Source: an uncultured Holophagaceae bacterium (GTDB lineage: Bacteria > Acidobacteriota > Holophagae > Holophagales > Holophagaceae). From it: 64,000 bases of DNA. A program made the position numbers and the translations under genes. The notes beneath the pieces are model-generated. The model had not been told where the DNA came from. It made no database searches and saw only the letters and a list, made by a program, of their open reading frames with translations. This document shows positions 13,027 through 20,843 of the stretch, piece after piece; position 1 is the first letter of the stretch, and each line of letters opens with the position of its first letter. The stretch covers positions 10,091 to 74,090 of the forward strand of contig CAIMQW010000277.1 in assembly GCA_903843705.1 (NCBI GenBank), in the 5' to 3' direction.

Positions 13027-13542
13027 ATGAAGGTGATTGGCATCGTCGGCTGGAGCGGCAGCGGGAAGACCAGCCTGGTGGTCCAGGTCCTGCCGATCCT
13101 GAAGGAGCGTGGGCTCAGGGTCTCGACCATGAAGCATGCCCATCATCGTTTCGACGTGGACAAGCCAGGCAAGGACTCCTTCCAGCACCGGGAGGCCGGG
13201 GCTTCGGAAGTCCTCGTGGTCACCTCCTCCCGCTGGGTCCTGATGCACGAATCCCGGGAGGAGCCCGAGCCCAGCATCGAGTCCCTGATTGAGCGAATGA
13301 CGCCCGTGGACCTGCTGCTCATCGAGGGCTTCAAGACCCATCACCACCCCAAGATCGAGATTTATCGGCAAACCGAAGGCAAGCCCCTGCTCTGCACGGT
13401 TGATCTCGAGATCGTCGCTGTGGCCAGTGACCGTCCCCTGCCACCCCTGACCATCCCGCAACTGGACCTGAACGATCCCAGAGCCATCGCCGAATTCATC
13501 CTGGTCCACACTGGGTTGAGCCCCCTTGGGGGAAGGGCCTAA
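13027..13542 (+). CDS. mobB: Molybdopterin-guanine dinucleotide biosynthesis protein B
   Basis: GWSGSGKT, KHAHHRFDVDKPGKDS, LLIEGFK; GAGGAG RBS before ATG 13027. Confidence 0.93.
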   Translation: MKVIGIVGWSGSGKTSLVVQVLPILKERGLRVSTMKHAHHRFDVDKPGKDSFQHREAGASEVLVVTSSRWVLMHESREEPEPSIESLIERMTPVDLLLIEGFKTHHHPKIEIYRQTEGKPLLCTVDLEIVAVASDRPLPPLTIPQLDLNDPRAIAEFILVHTGLSPLGGRA

Positions 13543-13638
13543 GGCACCTGCCCTGGCCCTCCACGGAGACATCCCTGAATGGTCATCTAACCTTGGACGG
13601 TGTCTCTCGAAGGGGCCATTGTGGAGCAACCACTCTTC

Positions 13639-13660
13639 TAATACACTGATTCATGTAATA
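13639..13660. promoter_or_regulatory. Putative ArsR/SmtB operator
   Basis: AT-rich imperfect palindrome TAATACA-N8-TGTAATA 15 bp upstream of the ArsR start. Confidence 0.55.
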
Positions 13661-13674
13661 GACAATTGGTAGCC

Positions 13675-14028
13675 ATGACGTGTCCGCTCAAAACAGATCC
13701 TGAACAGCGCCCCCTGCTTGGCTTGGCCGAGGCGGGAGAGCTGGCTGGGCTGTTCGAGGTGCTGGCTTCCGCTACGCGGGTGCGCCTGCTGCACGCACTG
13801 ATGACCATGGACGATCCCTGCATGTCCGACCTGGCTGCTGCCGTCGAGATGAAGGCGCAGGCCGTGTCCAACCAGCTGCGCAAACTGGTGGACCTCGGTG
13901 TCCTTGATACGTGTCGGCACGGCAACCACATCCACTATCGCATCGTGGAACCCTGCGTGACGAACCTCCTCCACCAGGGCCTCTGCATCAACGAGGATCA
14001 GGTGCTTCGGAAGGTGGGCTACTCATGA
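13675..14028 (+). CDS. ArsR/SmtB-family metalloregulator
   Basis: LFEVLASATRVRLL, CMSDLA, QAVSNQLRKL, HGNHIHYRI; five Cys. Confidence 0.9.
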   Translation: MTCPLKTDPEQRPLLGLAEAGELAGLFEVLASATRVRLLHALMTMDDPCMSDLAAAVEMKAQAVSNQLRKLVDLGVLDTCRHGNHIHYRIVEPCVTNLLHQGLCINEDQVLRKVGYS

Positions 14029-14294
14029 GGCGCTGGATCGCCATCCTGCTCCTCTGCCTGGCTGGCGCCTACTTGAGTGCAGCCGGGGTGGATGAGTGCG
14101 CCACTTCGCCGGACGAGGCCTGTGCGCCCATCTGCCACCTGCTCTGCTCAGACGGCTGCGCGACGGTCCCTGTACCTGAGCCACCGGTGGCACCCAGCCC
14201 TGACCCCCTGCCCAGGACTGCGTTCAAGGTGAGCCCGCCTTCCCGGCCGCTCCTCCGCACGGTGGAGCCAGAAATCACCCCGCCTCGGGGATAG
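14025..14294 (+). CDS. Small secreted Cys-rich, Pro-rich leader protein (DUF2946/CzcI-like position)
   Basis: ATGA overlap with arsR; 89 aa: signal peptide MRRWIAILLLCLAGAYLSAA, C-x3-CH-x2-C-x3-C, Pro-rich linker, C-terminus EPEITPPRG. Confidence 0.75.
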   Translation: MRRWIAILLLCLAGAYLSAAGVDECATSPDEACAPICHLLCSDGCATVPVPEPPVAPSPDPLPRTAFKVSPPSRPLLRTVEPEITPPRG

Positions 14295-14357
14295 GACGGA
14301 ATCCATTCCTGGATCCCGCCGGGCGCAGCTTTGCCCGAACAACCGCCTATTCCGAGG
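14283..14357 (+). promoter_or_regulatory. RBS-sequestering RNA structure upstream of the outer-membrane factor gene
   Basis: CCUCGGGGAUAGGACGG (14283-14299) is complementary, with two bulges, to CCGCCUAUUCCGAGG (14343-14357), which contains the GAGG SD of ATG 14364. Two small hairpins lie inside. Confidence 0.65.
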
Positions 14358-14363
14358 AAACCC

Positions 14364-15560
14364 ATGCGTCGTCTCCTGATCGGGGCCCTGCCCTGTCTCT
14401 TGCTGGCTCAAGCTCCCGCCAGTCCACCTTTATCCCCAGGCCTCACCTTCGAGAGCATCCTCAGCCATGCGAAGCCCGGCCTTGAGCGGCTCAGGCTGGC
14501 GGTCTGGCTGGCCGAGCGGAACCGCGAAGTGGCTGGCAGTGGGGGTTTCCTGCGGGAAGGGCCGACCTTTGGGGTGACGGCTGGCCCCCGTCGGTCGGTG
14601 GGCCTACCCGGCACCTCGGACCAATCCGCGGACGTGGATCTGCCCCTCTTCCTGTCACCGGGCACCCGAAGCAGTCTGGTGCGCGCCCTCGACCAGGCCG
14701 ATCCCCTGCTGCGGGAGGCTGCCCGCCGCGAGAGCCTTCTGCGCCTGCGCCAGGCCTACCTGGACGCCTGGCTGGAGCAGCAGGTCACGCAGCTGCGGCA
14801 GCAGGACCTCCAGACCGTGGAGGTGTGGCTGAACGCAGCGCAGGTCCGGCTGGAGTCCGGCGCCGACCCGGCCTTTCAGGTCGCACTGGTGGAAGGCGAG
14901 ATCCTCAAGGCCCAGATGGAGCTTGCAGACAGTCGACGCCGAGATTCAACGGCCTGGACCACGCTGCGCAGTCAGACCGACCTCCCAGAGCGTCCCGTCC
15001 CACTGGCAGAACCCGAGGCCCTGCCTACTCAGGATCCATCTGGGCTTTTCACACGTTACCAAGCGGCTCCCCTCCGCCGCGCCATGGCGGCGCGTCTCGA
15101 GGTGGAGCGCGAGAACCTCCGCCACCGGGAAGCCCTTGGCCTCAGCCGCTGGTCCCTGCGGGGCTCCTACGCCAAGGAAGGCGAGGATCGCATCGCCAAG
15201 GTTGGGATGGCCTATCGCTTCAGCCGCCCTGGTGAGGCGTCCGCCCTTCGGCGCGAGACCGAAGCCGGATTGGCCAGCCTCCAGCGCGAGCTTCAGATCG
15301 CCCTGGCCGAGCTGGATGGCCGGTTTCAGTCAGCGCTTGAGCGCCTCCAGCTTCTCGGCGGCATGGCCCCAAGGCGGTCCTTCCAACCGGCCATCCAGGC
15401 CGTGGGACTGCGTCTCCAATCCGGGCGGGAGCGTCCCTCCGATGCGATGCCCATCCGGCGCCAGCTGCTGGAGGCCGAGGTTGCGGGGCTTCGACGACAG
15501 CATGCGCAGCACCTCATCCAGGCCGAACTGCAGGCGCTCACCGAAGGAGTCACCCCATGA
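14364..15560 (+). CDS. TolC/CzcC-like outer-membrane efflux factor
   Basis: Signal peptide, long helical OEP-like segments (LRQAYLD, AAQVRLESG), first gene of a CBA triad. Confidence 0.75.
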   Translation: MRRLLIGALPCLLLAQAPASPPLSPGLTFESILSHAKPGLERLRLAVWLAERNREVAGSGGFLREGPTFGVTAGPRRSVGLPGTSDQSADVDLPLFLSPGTRSSLVRALDQADPLLREAARRESLLRLRQAYLDAWLEQQVTQLRQQDLQTVEVWLNAAQVRLESGADPAFQVALVEGEILKAQMELADSRRRDSTAWTTLRSQTDLPERPVPLAEPEALPTQDPSGLFTRYQAAPLRRAMAARLEVERENLRHREALGLSRWSLRGSYAKEGEDRIAKVGMAYRFSRPGEASALRRETEAGLASLQRELQIALAELDGRFQSALERLQLLGGMAPRRSFQPAIQAVGLRLQSGRERPSDAMPIRRQLLEAEVAGLRRQHAQHLIQAELQALTEGVTP

Positions 15561-16699
15561 AAGTTCTGACCACGCTAACCCTGCTGACCCTTCTGCTGGT
15601 TGGCGGGGGCTGCGGCAGAGAAAAGGCTGCGACAACGACCACCGAAGGGCATGAAGGCCATGAGAGTCATGGCTCAGCGAACGGCGCGTCGTCCAAGGTC
15701 CCTCTGAAGGAAATTCGGGGCCTGCGGCTCATGCAGGTACCGGAGTCTCGTCGCGAGGGAGCCTGGTATCCAGCGGAGGCCACCGGCGATGAAGGTGCCC
15801 AGGTCATTCTCTCTGCGCCGGTCAGGGGCATCGTGTCGGGACTGCTGGCCTCACCCGGACGCCCCGTTGCGCCAGGCGCTGCTCTGGCGGTGGTCCAGAG
15901 TCCGGAGCTCGCCCGCCTCAAGGCCGACTGGATCTCCTCCAAGGCCAAGCTCGAGCGGGCCGAGTCCGAAGCGGCCCGGGACGTGAAGCTCTACGAGGCC
16001 CAGGCAGGAAGTCGCCGGGAGCTGGAGGCTTCTCGTAGCGAGGTCGCCTCCGCCCGGGCCGATGAGGAGGCCAGCCGACTGGCCCTGGAGGCACGGGGGT
16101 TGCGGCCTGATCAGGCGGGGGCCACCTTCACGCTCAGAGCCCCGAAGGCCGGGGTCGTGGGGACCTGGAAGGTGCAGGTCGGCCAGGGCATCGAAGCAGG
16201 CCAGGAGCTGGGAACTTTCCAGGCCGCCTTCGCCGCCCTGGCCAAGGTGGAGCTCCCCCTCCCCGTGCCAGAAGCCTGGACGCCGGGGACGGTCACCAAG
16301 GTCCGTTCCAGCGGCGGCCATGCCTGGCAAGGGCGCCTTGAGAGCGCCCCCATGGCCCTCTCCCTGGACACACGCCGGCTCAACTACCGTCTGCGCCTCT
16401 CCGGTGCTGCGCTGCCCATGGCTGGCACCCCGCTGGAAGTGTACGTCCCGCTGGCCCAGGGTGTGAGTCTTCCACAGAGTGCCCTCCAACAGATGGAAGG
16501 CGTCTGGGGTGTGTTTGTCGGGGAAGGCGACTTTGCTGTCTTCCGTCCGGTGAAACGGGGCGTCGAGCTGGGCACCGAGGTGCTGGTCCTCGAAGGTGTG
16601 AAGCCGGGCGAGACCGTGGTCGCCGAAGGCGCCTACCTGCTGAAGGCCCTCCAGCAGAAGCGCTCTGAGCCCGCCGAAGGGGGTGGTCATGGGCACTGA
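15557..16699 (+). CDS. RND periplasmic adaptor (CzcB/CusB-like), lipoprotein
   Basis: Lipobox Cys, HEGHESH segment, SAPVRGIV lipoyl motif, EGVKPGETVVAEGAYLLK, C-terminal GGGHGH. Confidence 0.9.
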   Translation: MKVLTTLTLLTLLLVGGGCGREKAATTTTEGHEGHESHGSANGASSKVPLKEIRGLRLMQVPESRREGAWYPAEATGDEGAQVILSAPVRGIVSGLLASPGRPVAPGAALAVVQSPELARLKADWISSKAKLERAESEAARDVKLYEAQAGSRRELEASRSEVASARADEEASRLALEARGLRPDQAGATFTLRAPKAGVVGTWKVQVGQGIEAGQELGTFQAAFAALAKVELPLPVPEAWTPGTVTKVRSSGGHAWQGRLESAPMALSLDTRRLNYRLRLSGAALPMAGTPLEVYVPLAQGVSLPQSALQQMEGVWGVFVGEGDFAVFRPVKRGVELGTEVLVLEGVKPGETVVAEGAYLLKALQQKRSEPAEGGGHGH

Positions 16700-19600
16700 A
16701 CAAACCCAACACCGGTCCCTGGTCCGCCGCTGGTTTGACTGGATCCTCCCCCGGCGTGGCTGGGTGTTCGCGCTATCCATCGTGTGGGCAGTTGCCGGCG
16801 TCCTGGCCTTCTTCAACCTGAAGCGGGACCTCTTTCCGGACATGAGCCTGCCCGTGCTGTCAGTGCTCATCCAGAGCCCCGGGCGATCGACCACGGAGCT
16901 CGAGCTGTCCGTGGCGCAGCCCACTGAGCAGGCCCTGGGGGGCATGCCTGGCGTGCGCCGGGTCACCTCTCAAGTCCTGCCGGAGCTGCTCCAGGTGGTC
17001 GTCACCTTTGAGAGCGGCACTGATCCCTGGCGGGCACGGCAGCTGGTGGCCGAGCGCCTGGGTACGGTGGCGGGTGGCTTCCCGGCGGGTACCCGCCCTC
17101 CCCTCCTGTCCAGTGCCTCGGGGCGACTCCAGGAGCTCATGGAGGTGGTCCTGGAGGGAGAGAAGATCGATCCTCTGAAGCTGCGTGACCACGCTGAGCA
17201 GGTTCTGGTCCCACGCCTCCAGGCTGTGGCGGGCGTGGCGCGGGTGGAGCGCCTGGGGGGCCAGGAGCGGTCCCTGAGCATCATGCTCATCCCGGAACGC
17301 ATGCGCACCCTGGGGATCGGGTTGGATCGCGTCATGACCTCGCTGGAAGAGAGCCATCAGGACCTTGCGGCTGGGGTCCTGGAGATCCAGGACAAGGGCT
17401 GGTTCATCACTGTGGGCAACTTGGCGGCGACCTCCGAGGAAATTCGGCGCCTCCCCGTGCAGGGGCCAAAGGGCTTCGTCACCCTGGGGGAAGTGGCCGA
17501 GGTCCGCGAGGCTCCGGCTTTTCGCCGCGGCTTGGCCCGGCACGACGGGCACGAGGACGTCAGCCTGCGCATCGTCAAGCAGCCCACCGCGGCCTCACTG
17601 GAGGTGGCCGAAGGGGTTCGTGCGGCCATCGGGCAGCTGCGGCAGGAACTCCCCAAGGGCATGCTCCTGGAGGTGATCTACGACCAGGGACGCCTCGTCA
17701 CCAAGGCTCTGAACGGCGTGACCCTGGCGCTGCTTCTGGGCGGGCTGCTCGTGGCTGTGGTGCTGGTGGTATTGCTGGGCAGCCTCCGCGGAGCTCTGCT
17801 CGTGCTGACGGTGCTACCTCTCGCCACCTTCGGCGCAGCCATTCCCCTCTACCTCGCTGGACTTGGGCTGAACGCCATGACCCTGGGGGGCCTGGCCATT
17901 GCCGTAGGGCTGCTGGTGGACGCCGCCGTAATCATGGTGGAGAACCTGGCCCATCGTTTGCACTACCATCAAGATCAGATAGAGCCCCGGCGCGTGGCCC
18001 TGACGCGTGCCTCCGCCGAGGTGGCTGGGCCGATCCTCACGGCTGTGCTGGTAATCCTGGCGGTCTTCATTCCCCTGCTGTCCATGGGCGGGGTAGCCGG
18101 GAAGCTCTATGCGCCACTAGGCGTGGCCGTGGCCTCTGCCATGACCATCAGCCTCATCCTCAGCTTCACCCTGGTTCCAGCCTTGGTGGATCGCTTCCTG
18201 CCACCGGGGATCAGCCTGGAGGAACCGAAGCTAGTCGTGGCCATCAAGGCTGTCTACCGCCCGGCGCTGGACTGGGCCATGGGGCATGGCCCGCTGGTGA
18301 TGGGGCTCGCGTTTGCAGTGACCCTCCCCAGCATCTGGTTGGCGCTGCGGCTCGGCTCCAACTTCCTGCCGGCCCTGGATGAGGGCGCCTACATGCTGCT
18401 GTCCAAGCTGCCAGCGGAGTCCAGTCTCGATGCGGTAGACCAGGCGAACCTGCAGTTGGATGAGCGGCTGAAGGTCATTCCCGGCGTGCATGCGGTCTAC
18501 CGCCGAAGCGGCCGGGCCGAAGTGACGGAGGACCCCTGCCCCATCACCGACAGCGAGATCATGGTGATTCTCGAACCTGACGCCCAGGAGAAGATGGTCG
18601 CCAAGCAGCTGCTGGCGGTGGCCGAGGCCATGCCGTTCCCCGTGGAGGTGAACACCCCCATGCAGGAACGCATTGCCGAAGGCATCGGCGGGACGCCTGC
18701 CGACATCCAGGTGAAGCTCTTCAACCGGGACCTGATGGCCCTTCAGAAGGCGATACCAGAGCTGCAGGAACGCCTGGAGAAAGTGCCGGGGGTAAGAAGT
18801 GTCTCGCCCGATACCCCGGCCCCGATGCCGCGCTGGCGGGTGGTCCCCGATGAGGAGGCGCTGCGCCGCCTGGAAGTGCCGCGGATGCTCGTCTCTCGAA
18901 CCCTGCGCGCCGCCCTTCAGGGCCTGCCGTCCGAGGCCCGCTATGACGGCCCCCAGCGCATCGAGCGGGTGGTCCACTACCCCAACGATGGCCAGGTGAG
19001 CCCCCAGACCCTCAAGAACACGCCCCTGGTGCTAGACGATGGCCGGGTCATCTCGCTGGGCCAGGTGGTGGTCTTTCAGGAGGCCCAGACCCCGACCCTG
19101 ATCCGCCGGGAAGGCGGTCAGCGGCGAATTGGGCTGAATGTCCGCACGGACGGTGACCTGGGCAGCACTGCCCAGCGGATCGAGGCGGCCCTGTCCAAGG
19201 CGAAGCTTCCGGGAGGAACCTTCGTCGCCCTGGGGGGGAAGATCGAAGAGGCCCGCGAGACCCAGCGCCGCCTCTGGATAGCCATCGCTGCGGCCATGGC
19301 GCTGGTGGTCGCGCTGCTCTACCTGGCCTTGAAGCAGTGGCGCGAAGTCTTCGTGGTGCTGGCGACCCTGCCCAATGCCTTTGCCGGAGCCCTGTTTGCC
19401 CTCTGGCTGTCGGGGGAGACCTGGAACATCAGCTCCATCGTCGGCCTCATCGGCCTCTTTGGTGTGGCCGTGCAGAACAGTCTGGTGCTGATCACCCAGG
19501 CAAAGGGCCTCCGAGCAACGGGAATACCCTTCCAGGAGGCCCTGCGTGAGGCCAGCCTGGGCCGGGTCCGCCCCAAGCTGATGACCGCTGGGGCCGCCAT

Positions 19601-19823
19601 TCTCGGACTACTGCCCATGCTCTTTGGCTTCGGGGGGTCGGAGCTGGAACGTCCGCTGGCCGTGGCCATGGTCGGGGGACTCGTGACCAGCACCCTTTTC
19701 ACACTGCTGGCCTTGCCAAGCTTCTACGCTTGGGTGGCAACAGTCACAGGCACGCTGTCACGCTTTGGGAACCGAACCAGAGACATCACCATCGATTCAC
19801 AGGATCATGGTTCCCATGGATAG
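16689..19823 (+). CDS. Heavy-metal efflux RND permease (CzcA/CusA family)
   Basis: DLFPD, LNAMTLGGLAIAVGLLVDAAVIMVEN, FLPALDEG, RVRPKLMT, PLAVAMVGGL. Confidence 0.93.
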   Translation: MGTEQTQHRSLVRRWFDWILPRRGWVFALSIVWAVAGVLAFFNLKRDLFPDMSLPVLSVLIQSPGRSTTELELSVAQPTEQALGGMPGVRRVTSQVLPELLQVVVTFESGTDPWRARQLVAERLGTVAGGFPAGTRPPLLSSASGRLQELMEVVLEGEKIDPLKLRDHAEQVLVPRLQAVAGVARVERLGGQERSLSIMLIPERMRTLGIGLDRVMTSLEESHQDLAAGVLEIQDKGWFITVGNLAATSEEIRRLPVQGPKGFVTLGEVAEVREAPAFRRGLARHDGHEDVSLRIVKQPTAASLEVAEGVRAAIGQLRQELPKGMLLEVIYDQGRLVTKALNGVTLALLLGGLLVAVVLVVLLGSLRGALLVLTVLPLATFGAAIPLYLAGLGLNAMTLGGLAIAVGLLVDAAVIMVENLAHRLHYHQDQIEPRRVALTRASAEVAGPILTAVLVILAVFIPLLSMGGVAGKLYAPLGVAVASAMTISLILSFTLVPALVDRFLPPGISLEEPKLVVAIKAVYRPALDWAMGHGPLVMGLAFAVTLPSIWLALRLGSNFLPALDEGAYMLLSKLPAESSLDAVDQANLQLDERLKVIPGVHAVYRRSGRAEVTEDPCPITDSEIMVILEPDAQEKMVAKQLLAVAEAMPFPVEVNTPMQERIAEGIGGTPADIQVKLFNRDLMALQKAIPELQERLEKVPGVRSVSPDTPAPMPRWRVVPDEEALRRLEVPRMLVSRTLRAALQGLPSEARYDGPQRIERVVHYPNDGQVSPQTLKNTPLVLDDGRVISLGQVVVFQEAQTPTLIRREGGQRRIGLNVRTDGDLGSTAQRIEAALSKAKLPGGTFVALGGKIEEARETQRRLWIAIAAAMALVVALLYLALKQWREVFVVLATLPNAFAGALFALWLSGETWNISSIVGLIGLFGVAVQNSLVLITQAKGLRATGIPFQEALREASLGRVRPKLMTAGAAILGLLPMLFGFGGSELERPLAVAMVGGLVTSTLFTLLALPSFYAWVATVTGTLSRFGNRTRDITIDSQDHGSHG

Positions 19824-19952: not shown

Positions 19953-20843
19953 ATGAACAGGTCTAGTTATTTCAATCAATTCAAAGAACTCTTGGACATG
20001 ATTAAGTTCGAGCACACCGTGTTTGCGCTGCCCTTCGCGCTGCTCGGCGCGCTGGGCGCGGCGCAGGGCCTGCCGCCCCTGCGCACGGGGCTTTGGATCC
20101 TGGCGGCCATGGTGGGGGCCCGCACGTCAGCCATGACCTTCAACCGCCTGGTGGACGTGGACCTGGATGCGGAGAACCCGCGCACTGCCACCCGTGCCCT
20201 CCCTGCGGGCCGGGTCTCGAGGCTGGGCGCCATGCTGCTCCTGGGTGCGGGCGTCGTGCTCTTCGGTCTCTCTGCGGGCGCCCTGGGTCCGCTCCCCTGG
20301 GCGCTCTCGCCGCTGGCCCTGGTCATCATCCTCGGATACTCCCTCTGCAAGCGCTTCACGGCTTGGGCCCATGTGGTACTTGGGCTGTCTCTCGCGGGCG
20401 CGCCGCTGGGCGCCTGGATCGCCGTGGCGGGCCACATCGAGGCTCCGGCCCTGTGGCTGTCCGGGGGCGTCCTGGCCTGGACCGCAGGGTTCGACATCAT
20501 CTATGCCCTGCAGGACGAGGGCTTCGACCGGGACCGCGGGCTCCATTCGATTCCCTCGAAGCTCGGGGTGCATCGGTCGCTGCTGCTCTCCCGGTTCTTC
20601 CACCTGGTGGCCCTCGCCTGCTGGGCCACCTTCAACCACCTAATGGGCGGACACCTCTGGCCCTGGGCAGCCTGGGCCACGGTGGTGGTCATGCTGGGTC
20701 GGGAGCAGTGGCTGGTGCGCAGCGGCGACCTCTCGCGCATCGACCAGGCCTTCTTCACCCTCAATAGCCTGGTGGGGCTCGTGTTCTTCTTGGGGCACGC
20801 CATGGAATTCGTGTTGGCCAGGACGCTTCAGGCCGGGATCTAG
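19953..20843 (+). CDS. UbiA-family polyprenyltransferase (MqnP-like)
   Basis: IKFEHTVFALPFA, FNRLVDVDLDAENPRT, GFDIIYALQD. Confidence 0.92.
   Translation: MNRSSYFNQFKELLDMIKFEHTVFALPFALLGALGAAQGLPPLRTGLWILAAMVGARTSAMTFNRLVDVDLDAENPRTATRALPAGRVSRLGAMLLLGAGVVLFGLSAGALGPLPWALSPLALVIILGYSLCKRFTAWAHVVLGLSLAGAPLGAWIAVAGHIEAPALWLSGGVLAWTAGFDIIYALQDEGFDRDRGLHSIPSKLGVHRSLLLSRFFHLVALACWATFNHLMGGHLWPWAAWATVVVMLGREQWLVRSGDLSRIDQAFFTLNSLVGLVFFLGHAMEFVLARTLQAGI

What the first reader, a model, noticed from the sequence alone, without database searches (positions are those of the whole stretch)
14025..14366. Candidate metal-sensing ribosome-arrest leader controlling a heavy-metal RND pump, with a non-RAPP (TPPRG) tail
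Seen: an 89-aa ORF between arsR and the outer-membrane factor gene has a signal peptide, a C-x3-CH-x2-C-x3-C cluster, a Pro-rich linker and the C-terminus EPEITPPRG*. The mRNA of its last codons and stop (14283-14299) is complementary to 14343-14357, which contains the GAGG SD of the next gene; two internal hairpins complete a multi-branch structure. Known: DUF2946-type leaders (CruR of Bordetella pertussis, CutF of Rhodobacter capsulatus) combine a signal peptide, a Cys motif and a Pro-rich arrest tail to control downstream copper genes in cis, and CzcI occupies the same position in czc operons. Inference: a ribosome paused at PPRG would melt the stem and permit translation of the pump, coupling expression to secretion and metal-dependent folding of the nascent Cys domain. 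This adds a translational layer on top of ArsR repression, using a different Cys pattern and tail motif from the described cases.
Basis: partly seen in the sequence, partly recalled or inferred. Interest (0 to 1): 0.8.

Follow-up and report, generated by a model that had tools for sequence, protein, structure and literature searches.

The report
CutF-type metal-sensing leader before pump
A small exported cysteine-motif gene in front of a copper-type efflux pump is a conserved relative-by-design of the known ribosome-stalling copper sensor CutF, so it is probably a translational switch for the pump, but of a kind already described.

Summary
An 89-codon ORF (14025-14294) overlaps arsR by ATGA. 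It ends EPEITPPRG-stop, and its last codons pair with the GAGG ribosome-binding site of the outer-membrane factor gene.

The ORF is a real gene. Full-length copies occur in 69 of 133 Holophagaceae genomes, and 72 of 74 loci have the same pump gene directly downstream.

- **Invariant residues:** H38, C41, C45, P82, E83, P86 and P87.
- **Fixed spacing:** the last Cys of HxxCxxxC lies 39-40 residues before the terminal Pro-Pro in 58 of 61 family proteins, although the linker sequence diverges.

The tail is not new. It matches the published CutF tail (PEPEGPPPRL-stop) at 6 of 9 positions, and CutF has the same roughly 40-residue spacing. Pfam DUF2946 does not detect the family.

The pairing with the ribosome-binding site is strong in the window's own clade but shows no covariation. 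Across the family only a central hairpin covaries.

Published work already lists CutF-like genes upstream of Cus/Czc-type outer-membrane factor genes as their commonest context. Earlier notes of this scan describe similar leaders in at least 24 other genomes.

Verdict: a new member of a known kind, untested at the bench. Stalling and metal response are inferred.

The parts
13675..14028 (+). ArsR/SmtB-family metalloregulator gene; its stop overlaps the leader's start (ATGA)
   Evidence: Pfam HTH_5 and NCBIfam HTH_metalloreg above cut-off. An ArsR homolog with the same 4-nt overlap precedes the leader in at least 44 of 74 loci.
14025..14294 (+). Leader ORF, 89 aa (P0001): a CutF-like exported Cys/His-motif peptide
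   Evidence: Translation. Full-length homologs without stops in 69 of 133 Holophagaceae genomes. 43 clusters at 50% identity in 1.84 billion proteins. Amino-acid-level conservation with free synonymous change. No Pfam or NCBIfam hit.
14025..14087 (+). Signal peptide or membrane anchor (residues 1-21: MRR, hydrophobic core, SAAG)
   Evidence: Sequence. AlphaFold2 models a helix at 2-21 and no other secondary structure. No signal-peptide predictor was run.
14097..14159 (+). Metal-binding candidate C25-x7-C33-x3-C37-H38-x2-C41-x3-C45; core H-x2-C-x3-C
   Evidence: H38, C41 and C45 are invariant in 67 distinct CDS and in 37 distant representatives. C25, C33 and C37 are less conserved and are replaced by His in some genera.
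14160..14279 (+). Pro-rich linker of fixed length (40 residues) and variable sequence: a 'ruler'
   Evidence: The spacing from the last Cys to the terminal PP is 39 or 40 residues in 58 of 61 family proteins. No secondary structure is predicted.
14265..14294 (+). Tail E81-P-E-I-T-P86-P87-R88-G89 plus stop TAG; candidate arrest motif
   Evidence: P82, E83, P86 and P87 are invariant; E81 is 94% and R88 90% conserved (otherwise K). All four Pro codons are used. R88 is CGG in 55 of 60 cases against 29% genomic use. The tail matches CutF P109EPEGPPPRL118.
14283..14299 (+). 5' arm of the outer stem (P87-R88-G89 codons, stop, 5 nt)
14301..14314 (+). Inner hairpin 1 (AUCCA-UUCC-UGGAU)
   Evidence: kept in the clade consensus.
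14320..14337 (+). Inner hairpin 2 (CGGGCG...UGCCCG), the counterpart of the family-wide central hairpin
   Evidence: The central hairpin is 91.7% paired with compensatory changes in 18 loci.
14343..14357 (+). 3' arm of the outer stem, including the Shine-Dalgarno GAGG (14354-14357)
   Evidence: GAGG is invariant and lies 5-6 nt before the start in 72 of 74 loci.
14364..15560 (+). Outer-membrane factor gene (P0002)
   Evidence: Pfam OEP. A homolog lies directly downstream of the leader in 72 of 74 loci.
15557..16699 (+). Periplasmic adaptor (CzcB/CusB-like)
   Evidence: Pfam HlyD_D23 and NCBIfam TIGR00999/TIGR01730 matches.
16683..19823 (+). Heavy-metal RND pump with a CusA-type TM4 motif
   Evidence: ACR_tran, and CusA/CzcA-family TIGR00914 at 592 bits. 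TM4 GGLAIAVGLLVDAAVIMVEN aligns with CusA [20 protein letters not shown], not with ZneA AIDFG..VDGA. CusA and ZneA are equally close overall.

Best explanation
The 89-codon ORF is most likely a cis-acting, CutF-type sensor leader for a CusCBA-like efflux operon. Every step below is inferred by analogy with CutF; none was tested here.

1. The leader is translated from the arsR-leader-pump transcript, coupled to arsR through the ATGA overlap.
2. Its signal peptide sends the nascent chain into the Sec channel.
3. When the ribosome reaches Pro86-Pro87-Arg88, one codon before the stop, the HxxCxxxC motif lies 40 residues back. That places it beyond the exit tunnel, in or just past the translocon.
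4. Metal binding there, probably Cu(I) or Ag(I), prolongs the Pro-Pro pause.
5. The paused ribosome covers the last codons, the stop and the first bases of the spacer.
6. This keeps the helix that sequesters the downstream GAGG open, so the outer-membrane factor gene, and with it the pump, is translated.

ArsR would supply a transcriptional layer responding to cytoplasmic metal, and the leader a translational layer responding to periplasmic metal.

Shown here: the gene is real and its anatomy is conserved, the spacing is fixed, the tail resembles CutF's, the link to the pump gene is conserved, and the pairing is predicted in this clade.
For: **The gene is real and tied to the pump.**
- It is found in 69 of 133 Holophagaceae genomes, in 10 of 16 genera.
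- The same outer-membrane factor gene follows in 72 of 74 loci.
- The median spacer is 72 nt, and 80% of spacers are 65-82 nt.

**The peptide is under selection at the right places.**
- H38, C41, C45, P82, E83, P86 and P87 are invariant with free synonymous codon use. The tail is therefore selected as a peptide.
- The Cys-to-PP spacing is 39-40 residues in 58 of 61 proteins despite linker divergence.
- No globular fold is predicted beyond the N-terminal helix.

**It resembles CutF closely.**
- The tail E-P-E-x-x-P-P-R-x-stop equals CutF's EPEGPPPRL-stop at 6 of 9 positions.
- CutF's C69xxHC73 lies 40-41 residues before its PP(P).
- For CutF, the CxxxC motif, the tail and the signal peptide are needed, and stalling at PPP has been reported.
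- CutF-like genes are most often found upstream of OEP/CusC-type genes.

**The RNA fits in this clade.**
- The window duplex is -23.7 kcal/mol, z = -3.5.
- Codon choice in the last five codons favours pairing with the ribosome-binding region: mean z = -1.17 over 74 loci, and -1.7 to -4.3 in the window clade.
- The clade consensus structure contains the stem.

**The pump is copper-type.** Its TM4 motif is CusA-like.
Against: - No experiment exists for this family, and 'PPR' is not among the strongest known Pro-Pro stall contexts (my recollection, not tested here).
- The stem's two arms are invariant in the clade, so there is no covariation.
- Across the family the predicted partner of the ribosome-binding site varies: the Pro-Arg codons, the stop region, or codons 28-46 nt upstream.
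- Duplex energies are mostly no better than composition predicts (mean z = -0.57).
- With the 5' arm masked, the GAGG is still predicted to pair elsewhere.
- Pfam DUF2946 does not detect any of 37 representatives, and a profile comparison with six Acidobacteriota DUF2946 proteins aligns only the signal peptide.
- The CGG and CCU bias could instead reflect slow decoding.
Confidence: 0.55

Rival explanations
1. The ORF encodes a stable, trans-acting exported or membrane-anchored metal-binding accessory protein of the pump, such as a chaperone or docking peptide. On this reading the conserved C-terminus is a protein-binding epitope, not an arrest motif.
For: The Cys/His cluster and signal peptide are conserved. 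The Pro-rich segment could be an extended spacer. CutF itself was first read as a possible chaperone.
Against: No fold is predicted beyond the N-terminal helix. The exact 39-40-residue spacing with a divergent linker and exactly one residue after PPR in most members fit a position counted from the ribosome better than a binding epitope. CutF is undetectable in vivo and works only in cis. The constrained spacer and hairpin are not explained.
Confidence: 0.2
2. The parts are the same but the logic is CruR-like. The ribosome stalls by default, and metal binding relieves the stall. Alternatively, the stall acts by blocking Rho loading on the C-rich spacer rather than by opening the ribosome-binding site.
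For: CruR works this way. The 3' half of the spacer is pyrimidine-rich (63% pyrimidine, 40% C versus 23% G). There is no intrinsic terminator in the spacer. The pairing with the ribosome-binding site is not consistently conserved.
Against: An export pump should be switched on, not off, by metal. The tail matches CutF, not CruR's RAPP. The C-rich stretch is only about 25-35 nt.
Confidence: 0.12
3. There is plain structure-mediated translational coupling. Any ribosome finishing the leader opens the helix around the stop codon and lets the pump gene be translated. The Cys motif and Pro-Pro play no sensing role.
For: A helix involving the stop codon and the pyrimidine tract before the ribosome-binding site is about 70% paired in 18 loci. 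arsR and the leader overlap by ATGA.
Against: This does not explain the invariant H, C, C and PP residues, the fixed spacing or the signal peptide.
Confidence: 0.08

Closest known systems
CutF of Rhodobacter capsulatus (cutFOG; PMC8456105, PMC9973294, bioRxiv 10.1101/2025.02.05.636593)
   Same: Both are small exported proteins with a CxxxC-type motif that includes a His. Both have about 40 residues between the last Cys and the Pro-Pro. The tails match: EPE-x-x-PPR-x-stop here, PEPEGPPPRL-stop in CutF. Both have a short spacer with RNA structure before the next gene's ribosome-binding site, and both sit next to a copper-type detoxification gene.
   Different: The downstream gene is an RND outer-membrane factor, not the multicopper oxidase CutO. 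The motif is PP rather than PPP. The Cys motif is H-x2-C-x3-C plus up to three further Cys, rather than C-x2-H-C. The operon begins with arsR. The host is Acidobacteriota (Holophagaceae).
CutF-like proteins upstream of OEP/CusC/CzcC/SilC genes, including SilD and CusD nodes (survey in PMC9973294)
   Same: The rule set and the gene context are met: under 150 aa, signal peptide, Cys/His motif, PP in the last 15 residues, and an RND outer-membrane factor gene downstream within 100 nt.
   Different: That set is bioinformatic only. It is dominated by Pseudomonadota and Bacteroidota, and Acidobacteria are not mentioned in the main text or in the held supplements. I could not check whether this family is in their list.
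CruR of Bordetella pertussis and Pfam DUF2946 (PF11162)
   Same: These are small exported Cys-motif leaders with a C-terminal proline arrest motif, controlling a downstream metal gene in cis.
   Different: DUF2946 has a CxxC motif and an R-A/G-P-P tail, as seen in four Acidobacteriota examples. The Pfam model hits none of 37 family members. In CruR, metal relieves the arrest and the output is Rho-dependent.
SecM and RAPP-type monitoring substrates (ApdA, ApdP, ApcA)
   Same: All are exported nascent chains whose C-terminal arrest opens the next gene's ribosome-binding site.
   Different: Those sense translocation force, not metal, and use RAGP/RAPP/RAPG motifs upstream of Sec/YidC genes.

Membership tests
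CutF-like proteins (rule set of PMC8456105 / PMC9973294) | Protein shorter than 150 aa | tested here: met
   89 aa. Family members are 74-119 aa.
CutF-like proteins (rule set of PMC8456105 / PMC9973294) | N-terminal Sec signal peptide | tested here: inconclusive
   The N-terminus has MRR, a hydrophobic core and a small-residue site. AlphaFold2 models a helix at 2-21. No signal-peptide predictor was available.
CutF-like proteins (rule set of PMC8456105 / PMC9973294) | Central CxxxC (or Cys/His variant) metal motif | tested here: met
   C41-x3-C45 with H38 is invariant in 67 CDS and in 37 distant representatives.
CutF-like proteins (rule set of PMC8456105 / PMC9973294) | [quoted passage not shown] | tested here: met
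   P86-P87 are invariant and lie 2 residues before the stop. The tail matches CutF at 6 of 9 positions.
CutF-like proteins (rule set of PMC8456105 / PMC9973294) | [quoted passage not shown] | tested here: met
   A 69-nt spacer leads to the outer-membrane factor gene of a CusA-like RND operon. This holds in 72 of 74 loci.
CutF-like proteins (rule set of PMC8456105 / PMC9973294) | Stem-loop shielding the downstream ribosome-binding site | tested here: inconclusive
   It is predicted in the window and its clade. There is no covariation, and the partner varies across the family.
CutF-like proteins (rule set of PMC8456105 / PMC9973294) | Metal-dependent ribosome stalling and cis-only action | not testable with these tools
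   This needs toeprinting and reporter genetics.
Pfam DUF2946 (PF11162) | Match to the family model at or above its gathering score | tested here: not met
   There is no hit for P0001 at E<=10, none of 37 representatives hit at E<=1, and there is none over the cut-off in the window's genome. hhalign against six DUF2946 proteins gives probability 12%, covering the signal peptide only.
RAPP-type arrest peptides | C-terminal R-A/G-P-P or R-A-P-G/R-A-G-P core | tested here: not met
   The tail is x-P-P-R-x, and no RAPP-like tetrapeptide occurs in any member listed.

The most novel reading that the evidence does not exclude
The family would be a separate, Pfam-invisible branch of CutF-type sensors. 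In it, a strictly fixed 39-40-residue ruler sets where the HxxCxxxC motif sits in the translocon at the moment of a Pro-Pro-Arg pause. It would give a heavy-metal RND pump two-compartment control: ArsR sensing the cytoplasm, the leader sensing the periplasm, and the two chained by an ATGA overlap. The near-identity of ruler and tail between an alphaproteobacterial oxidase leader and an acidobacterial pump leader would then define the minimal, portable 'metal-gated arrest module'.
Probability: 0.3. Interest if true: 0.55.

Novelty: new member of a known kind. Interest (0 to 1): 0.4.

Why it matters
CutF-type control has been shown at the bench only for a multicopper oxidase, and CruR-type control only for a TonB-dependent receptor. 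No metal RND pump has yet been shown to be gated by a nascent-chain sensor, although surveys list pump genes as the commonest neighbour.

This family offers a clean test case. The leader is short and strictly 89 codons, with seven invariant residues. The ruler is fixed and can be lengthened or shortened. There are cultured hosts in Geothrix.

The fixed spacing, shared with CutF, makes the proposed geometry directly testable: the metal site sits at the translocon while the Pro-Pro sits at the peptidyl-transferase centre.

For annotation, these genes are currently called 'hypothetical' or are not called at all.

Tried and rejected
- **Domain searches.** Pfam and NCBIfam found nothing for the leader, and Rfam found nothing on 13400-14600.
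- **DUF2946 membership** was rejected.
- **Family-wide structure.** RNAalifold over 65 loci found only three pairs of the central hairpin. The MAFFT alignment of the spacer across genera is poor.
[quoted passage not shown] I judge these GC-rich folds uninformative for that question.
- **Alternative roles for the spacer hairpin.** Reading it as an intrinsic terminator is rejected, because there is no T-run and no + strand terminator hit. No promoter-like site was found either. No inverted repeat was found upstream of arsR at seed 6.
- **Metal specificity.** It cannot be settled by overall similarity, because CusA and ZneA tie. Only the TM4 motif points to the CusA type, and the CusA Met triad does not align cleanly.
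- **Closed or limited tools.** A DUF2946 query gave only three relatives.
- **CutF sequence.** It could not be brought in as a reference, so the comparison rests on the motifs and residue numbers printed in the papers.
Full report
**1. What is in the window**

Bases 14025-14294 (+) encode an 89-residue protein, MRRWIAILLLCLAGAYLSAAGVDECATSPDEACAPICHLLCSDGCATVPVPEPPVAPSPDPLPRTAFKVSPPSRPLLRTVEPEITPPRG.

- The start codon overlaps the stop of an ArsR/SmtB-family gene (13675-14028) as ATGA.
- After a 69-nt spacer come three pump genes: an outer-membrane factor gene (14364-15560), a CzcB/CusB-like adaptor (15557-16699) and a CusA/CzcA-family RND pump (16683-19823).
- The pump's TM4 motif GGLAIAVGLLVDAAVIMVEN aligns with CusA ([20 protein letters not shown]). 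It does not align with the D-F-G/D-G-A motif of ZneA.
- Overall, CusA and ZneA are equally similar to the pump, and the CusA methionine triad does not align cleanly.

**2. The observation**

- 14283-14299 is complementary to 14343-14357, which contains GAGG six bases before ATG 14364.
- RNAfold of 14270-14370 gives that outer stem around two inner hairpins at -35.6 kcal/mol. The region as a whole is only modestly better than shuffles (z = -1.65).
- The duplex itself (-23.7 kcal/mol) is well beyond dinucleotide shuffles of the 5' arm (z = -3.5).
- It is also beyond synonymous recodings of the last five codons (z = -2.5).

**3. The ORF is a real, conserved gene**

- A search of relatives found full-length, stop-free copies in about 20 of 36 genomes of the same genus.
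- A profile search found it in 69 of 133 genomes of the family, in 10 of 16 genera.
- Public names identify these as Holophagaceae, Geothrix and Holophaga.
- In a sample of 401 Acidobacteriota genomes it occurred only in this family: 18 of 30 genomes there, against 0 of 370 elsewhere.
- An exhaustive profile search of 1.84 billion representatives found only 43 clusters.
- No Pfam or NCBIfam model matches.

**4. What is conserved**

- In 67 distinct 89-codon genes, H38, C41, C45, P82, E83, P86 and P87 are invariant. E81, K84 and R88 are 90-94% conserved.
- All four proline codons are used at P82, P86 and P87, so selection acts on the peptide there.
- R88 is CGG in 55 of 60 cases (genomic use 29%), and P86 is CCU in 54% (genomic use 12%).
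- The last sense codon is free: G, V, A, T, S, H, P or I.
- The N-terminal cysteines (C25, C33, C37) are replaced by histidines in some genera.
- The spacing is the sharpest signal. The number of residues between the last Cys of H-x2-C-x3-C and the terminal Pro-Pro is 39 or 40 in 58 of 61 family proteins. This includes representatives whose linker sequence is unrelated.
- AlphaFold2 with a 37-row alignment predicts only the N-terminal helix (2-21) and no other secondary structure (pTM 0.39).

**5. Link to the pump**

- A homolog of the window's outer-membrane factor gene follows the leader in 72 of 74 loci.
- The spacer has a median of 72 nt, and 80% of spacers lie between 65 and 82 nt. The GAGG is invariant and sits 5-6 nt before the start.
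- An ArsR homolog with the same ATGA overlap precedes the leader in at least 44 of 74 loci.
- A second, longer leader type (…CHFFCNHGC…, 38 residues, …KAPPR[FL]LA-stop) precedes a paralogous outer-membrane factor gene in several genomes.

**6. Comparison with the literature**

- *Survey.* Öztürk et al. define CutF-like proteins as under 150 aa, with a signal peptide, a Cys/His motif, PP in the last 15 residues and a same-strand neighbour. They report that the commonest downstream neighbours are OEP (CusC/CzcC/SilC) genes of RND systems. SilD and CusD are among the labelled nodes (PMC9973294).
- *CutF itself.* It is 118 aa, with C69-x-x-H72-C73 and the C-terminus P109-E-P-E-G-P-P-P-R-L118 (PMC8456105; bioRxiv 10.1101/2025.02.05.636593).
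- *Tail.* Counted from the stop, the family consensus E-P-E-K-D-P-P-R-A and CutF's E-P-E-G-P-P-P-R-L agree at E, P, E, P, P and R. These are exactly the family's most conserved tail positions.
- *Spacing.* CutF's last Cys lies 40 residues before its first Pro of PPP (41 before the PP that precedes Arg). The authors themselves suggest that this distance may be critical.
- *Experimental basis.* For CutF, the signal peptide, the CxxxC motif and the proline tail are required. [quoted passage not shown] Cu-induced, EF-P-sensitive stalling at PPP has been reported.
- *Contrast with DUF2946.* CruR carries RAPP, and its arrest was shown in vitro (PMC12992588). Genuine DUF2946 proteins in other Acidobacteriota carry CxxC and G-R-A/G-P-P tails.

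**7. The RNA across the family**

The eight outer-stem pairs never vary, so they carry no covariation evidence.
- In 18 same-genus loci only the central hairpin is in the consensus. It shows compensatory changes and is 91.7% paired.
- A helix between the stop codon plus following purines and the pyrimidine tract after the hairpin is about 70% paired.
- In ensemble folds the partner of the GAGG varies: the Pro-Arg codons in the window clade, and elsewhere the stop region or codons 28-46 nt upstream.
- The best duplex between the zone a paused ribosome would cover (-9 to +12 around the stop) and the ribosome-binding zone includes at least 3 of the 4 GAGG bases in 78% of loci. It beats composition clearly (z < -2) in only 15%.
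- Synonymous codon choice in the tail is biased toward such pairing: mean z = -1.17, 57% of loci below -1 and 3% above +1. These loci are related, and slow-codon selection is an alternative reading.
- There is no intrinsic terminator or promoter-like site in the spacer and no Rfam match.

**8. Reading**

The protein-level evidence makes a CutF-type cis-acting sensor leader the best explanation (about 0.55). That evidence is the invariant HxxCxxxC, the 39-40-residue ruler, the CutF-like EPE..PPR tail one codon from the stop, the lack of a predicted fold, and the obligatory pump neighbour at a fixed distance.

The RNA half of the model is plausible for this window but is not demonstrated as a family-wide feature. 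Nothing here shows stalling, metal binding or cis action.

The rivals are a trans-acting exported metal-binding peptide, CruR-like or Rho-based logic, and plain structure-mediated coupling.

**9. Novelty**

The kind is published, including its commonest context in front of RND outer-membrane factor genes. Earlier notes of this scan describe comparable leaders in at least 24 other genomes. Those notes were not used as evidence.

What is added here:
- a Holophagaceae family that Pfam does not see;
- its close match to CutF's own tail and spacing;
- the strict ruler;
- the arsR-leader overlap.

This is a new member of a known kind, of moderate interest, chiefly as a tractable test of nascent-chain metal sensing for an efflux pump.

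Noticed in passing
L020:1299-1662 (- strand), L091, L092, L093; also L148, L153-L156: There is a second, longer leader type in several Geothrix-like genomes: signal anchor, CHFFCNHGC, 38 residues, then QP[EI]KAPPR[FL]LA-stop. Each is followed 68-119 nt later by a paralog of the outer-membrane factor gene (phmmer E about 1e-91).
   Followed up: partly
window 14280-14288 and homologous codons in 67 loci: Codon bias sits inside an otherwise synonymously free tail. Arg88 is CGG in 55 of 60 cases (genome 29%) and never CGC or CGT. Pro86 is CCU in 54% (genome 12%). This could reflect pairing with the ribosome-binding site or deliberately slow decoding.
   Followed up: partly
L094-L097 (other Acidobacteriota): Genuine DUF2946 small proteins, found in 3-4 of 301 Acidobacteriota genomes sampled, carry CxxC motifs and G-R-A/G-P-P tails 2-8 residues before the stop. 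That is the CruR/RAPP type, clearly distinct from the Holophagaceae family.
   Followed up: partly
window 15557-15700: The adaptor protein starts with a lipoprotein-like signal (LLLVGGGC), followed by a His-rich stretch (TTEGHEGHESHGS) that may be an extra metal-binding arm.
   Followed up: no
L004 (G012:C7) and L025 (G080:C39): In two loci the leader is intact but the usual outer-membrane factor start is missing or replaced. L025 is followed by a lipoprotein-like ORF. These may be rearranged operons.
   Followed up: no
window 19953-20843: A UbiA/MqnP-type prenyltransferase gene follows the pump operon directly. It is probably unrelated to it.
   Followed up: no
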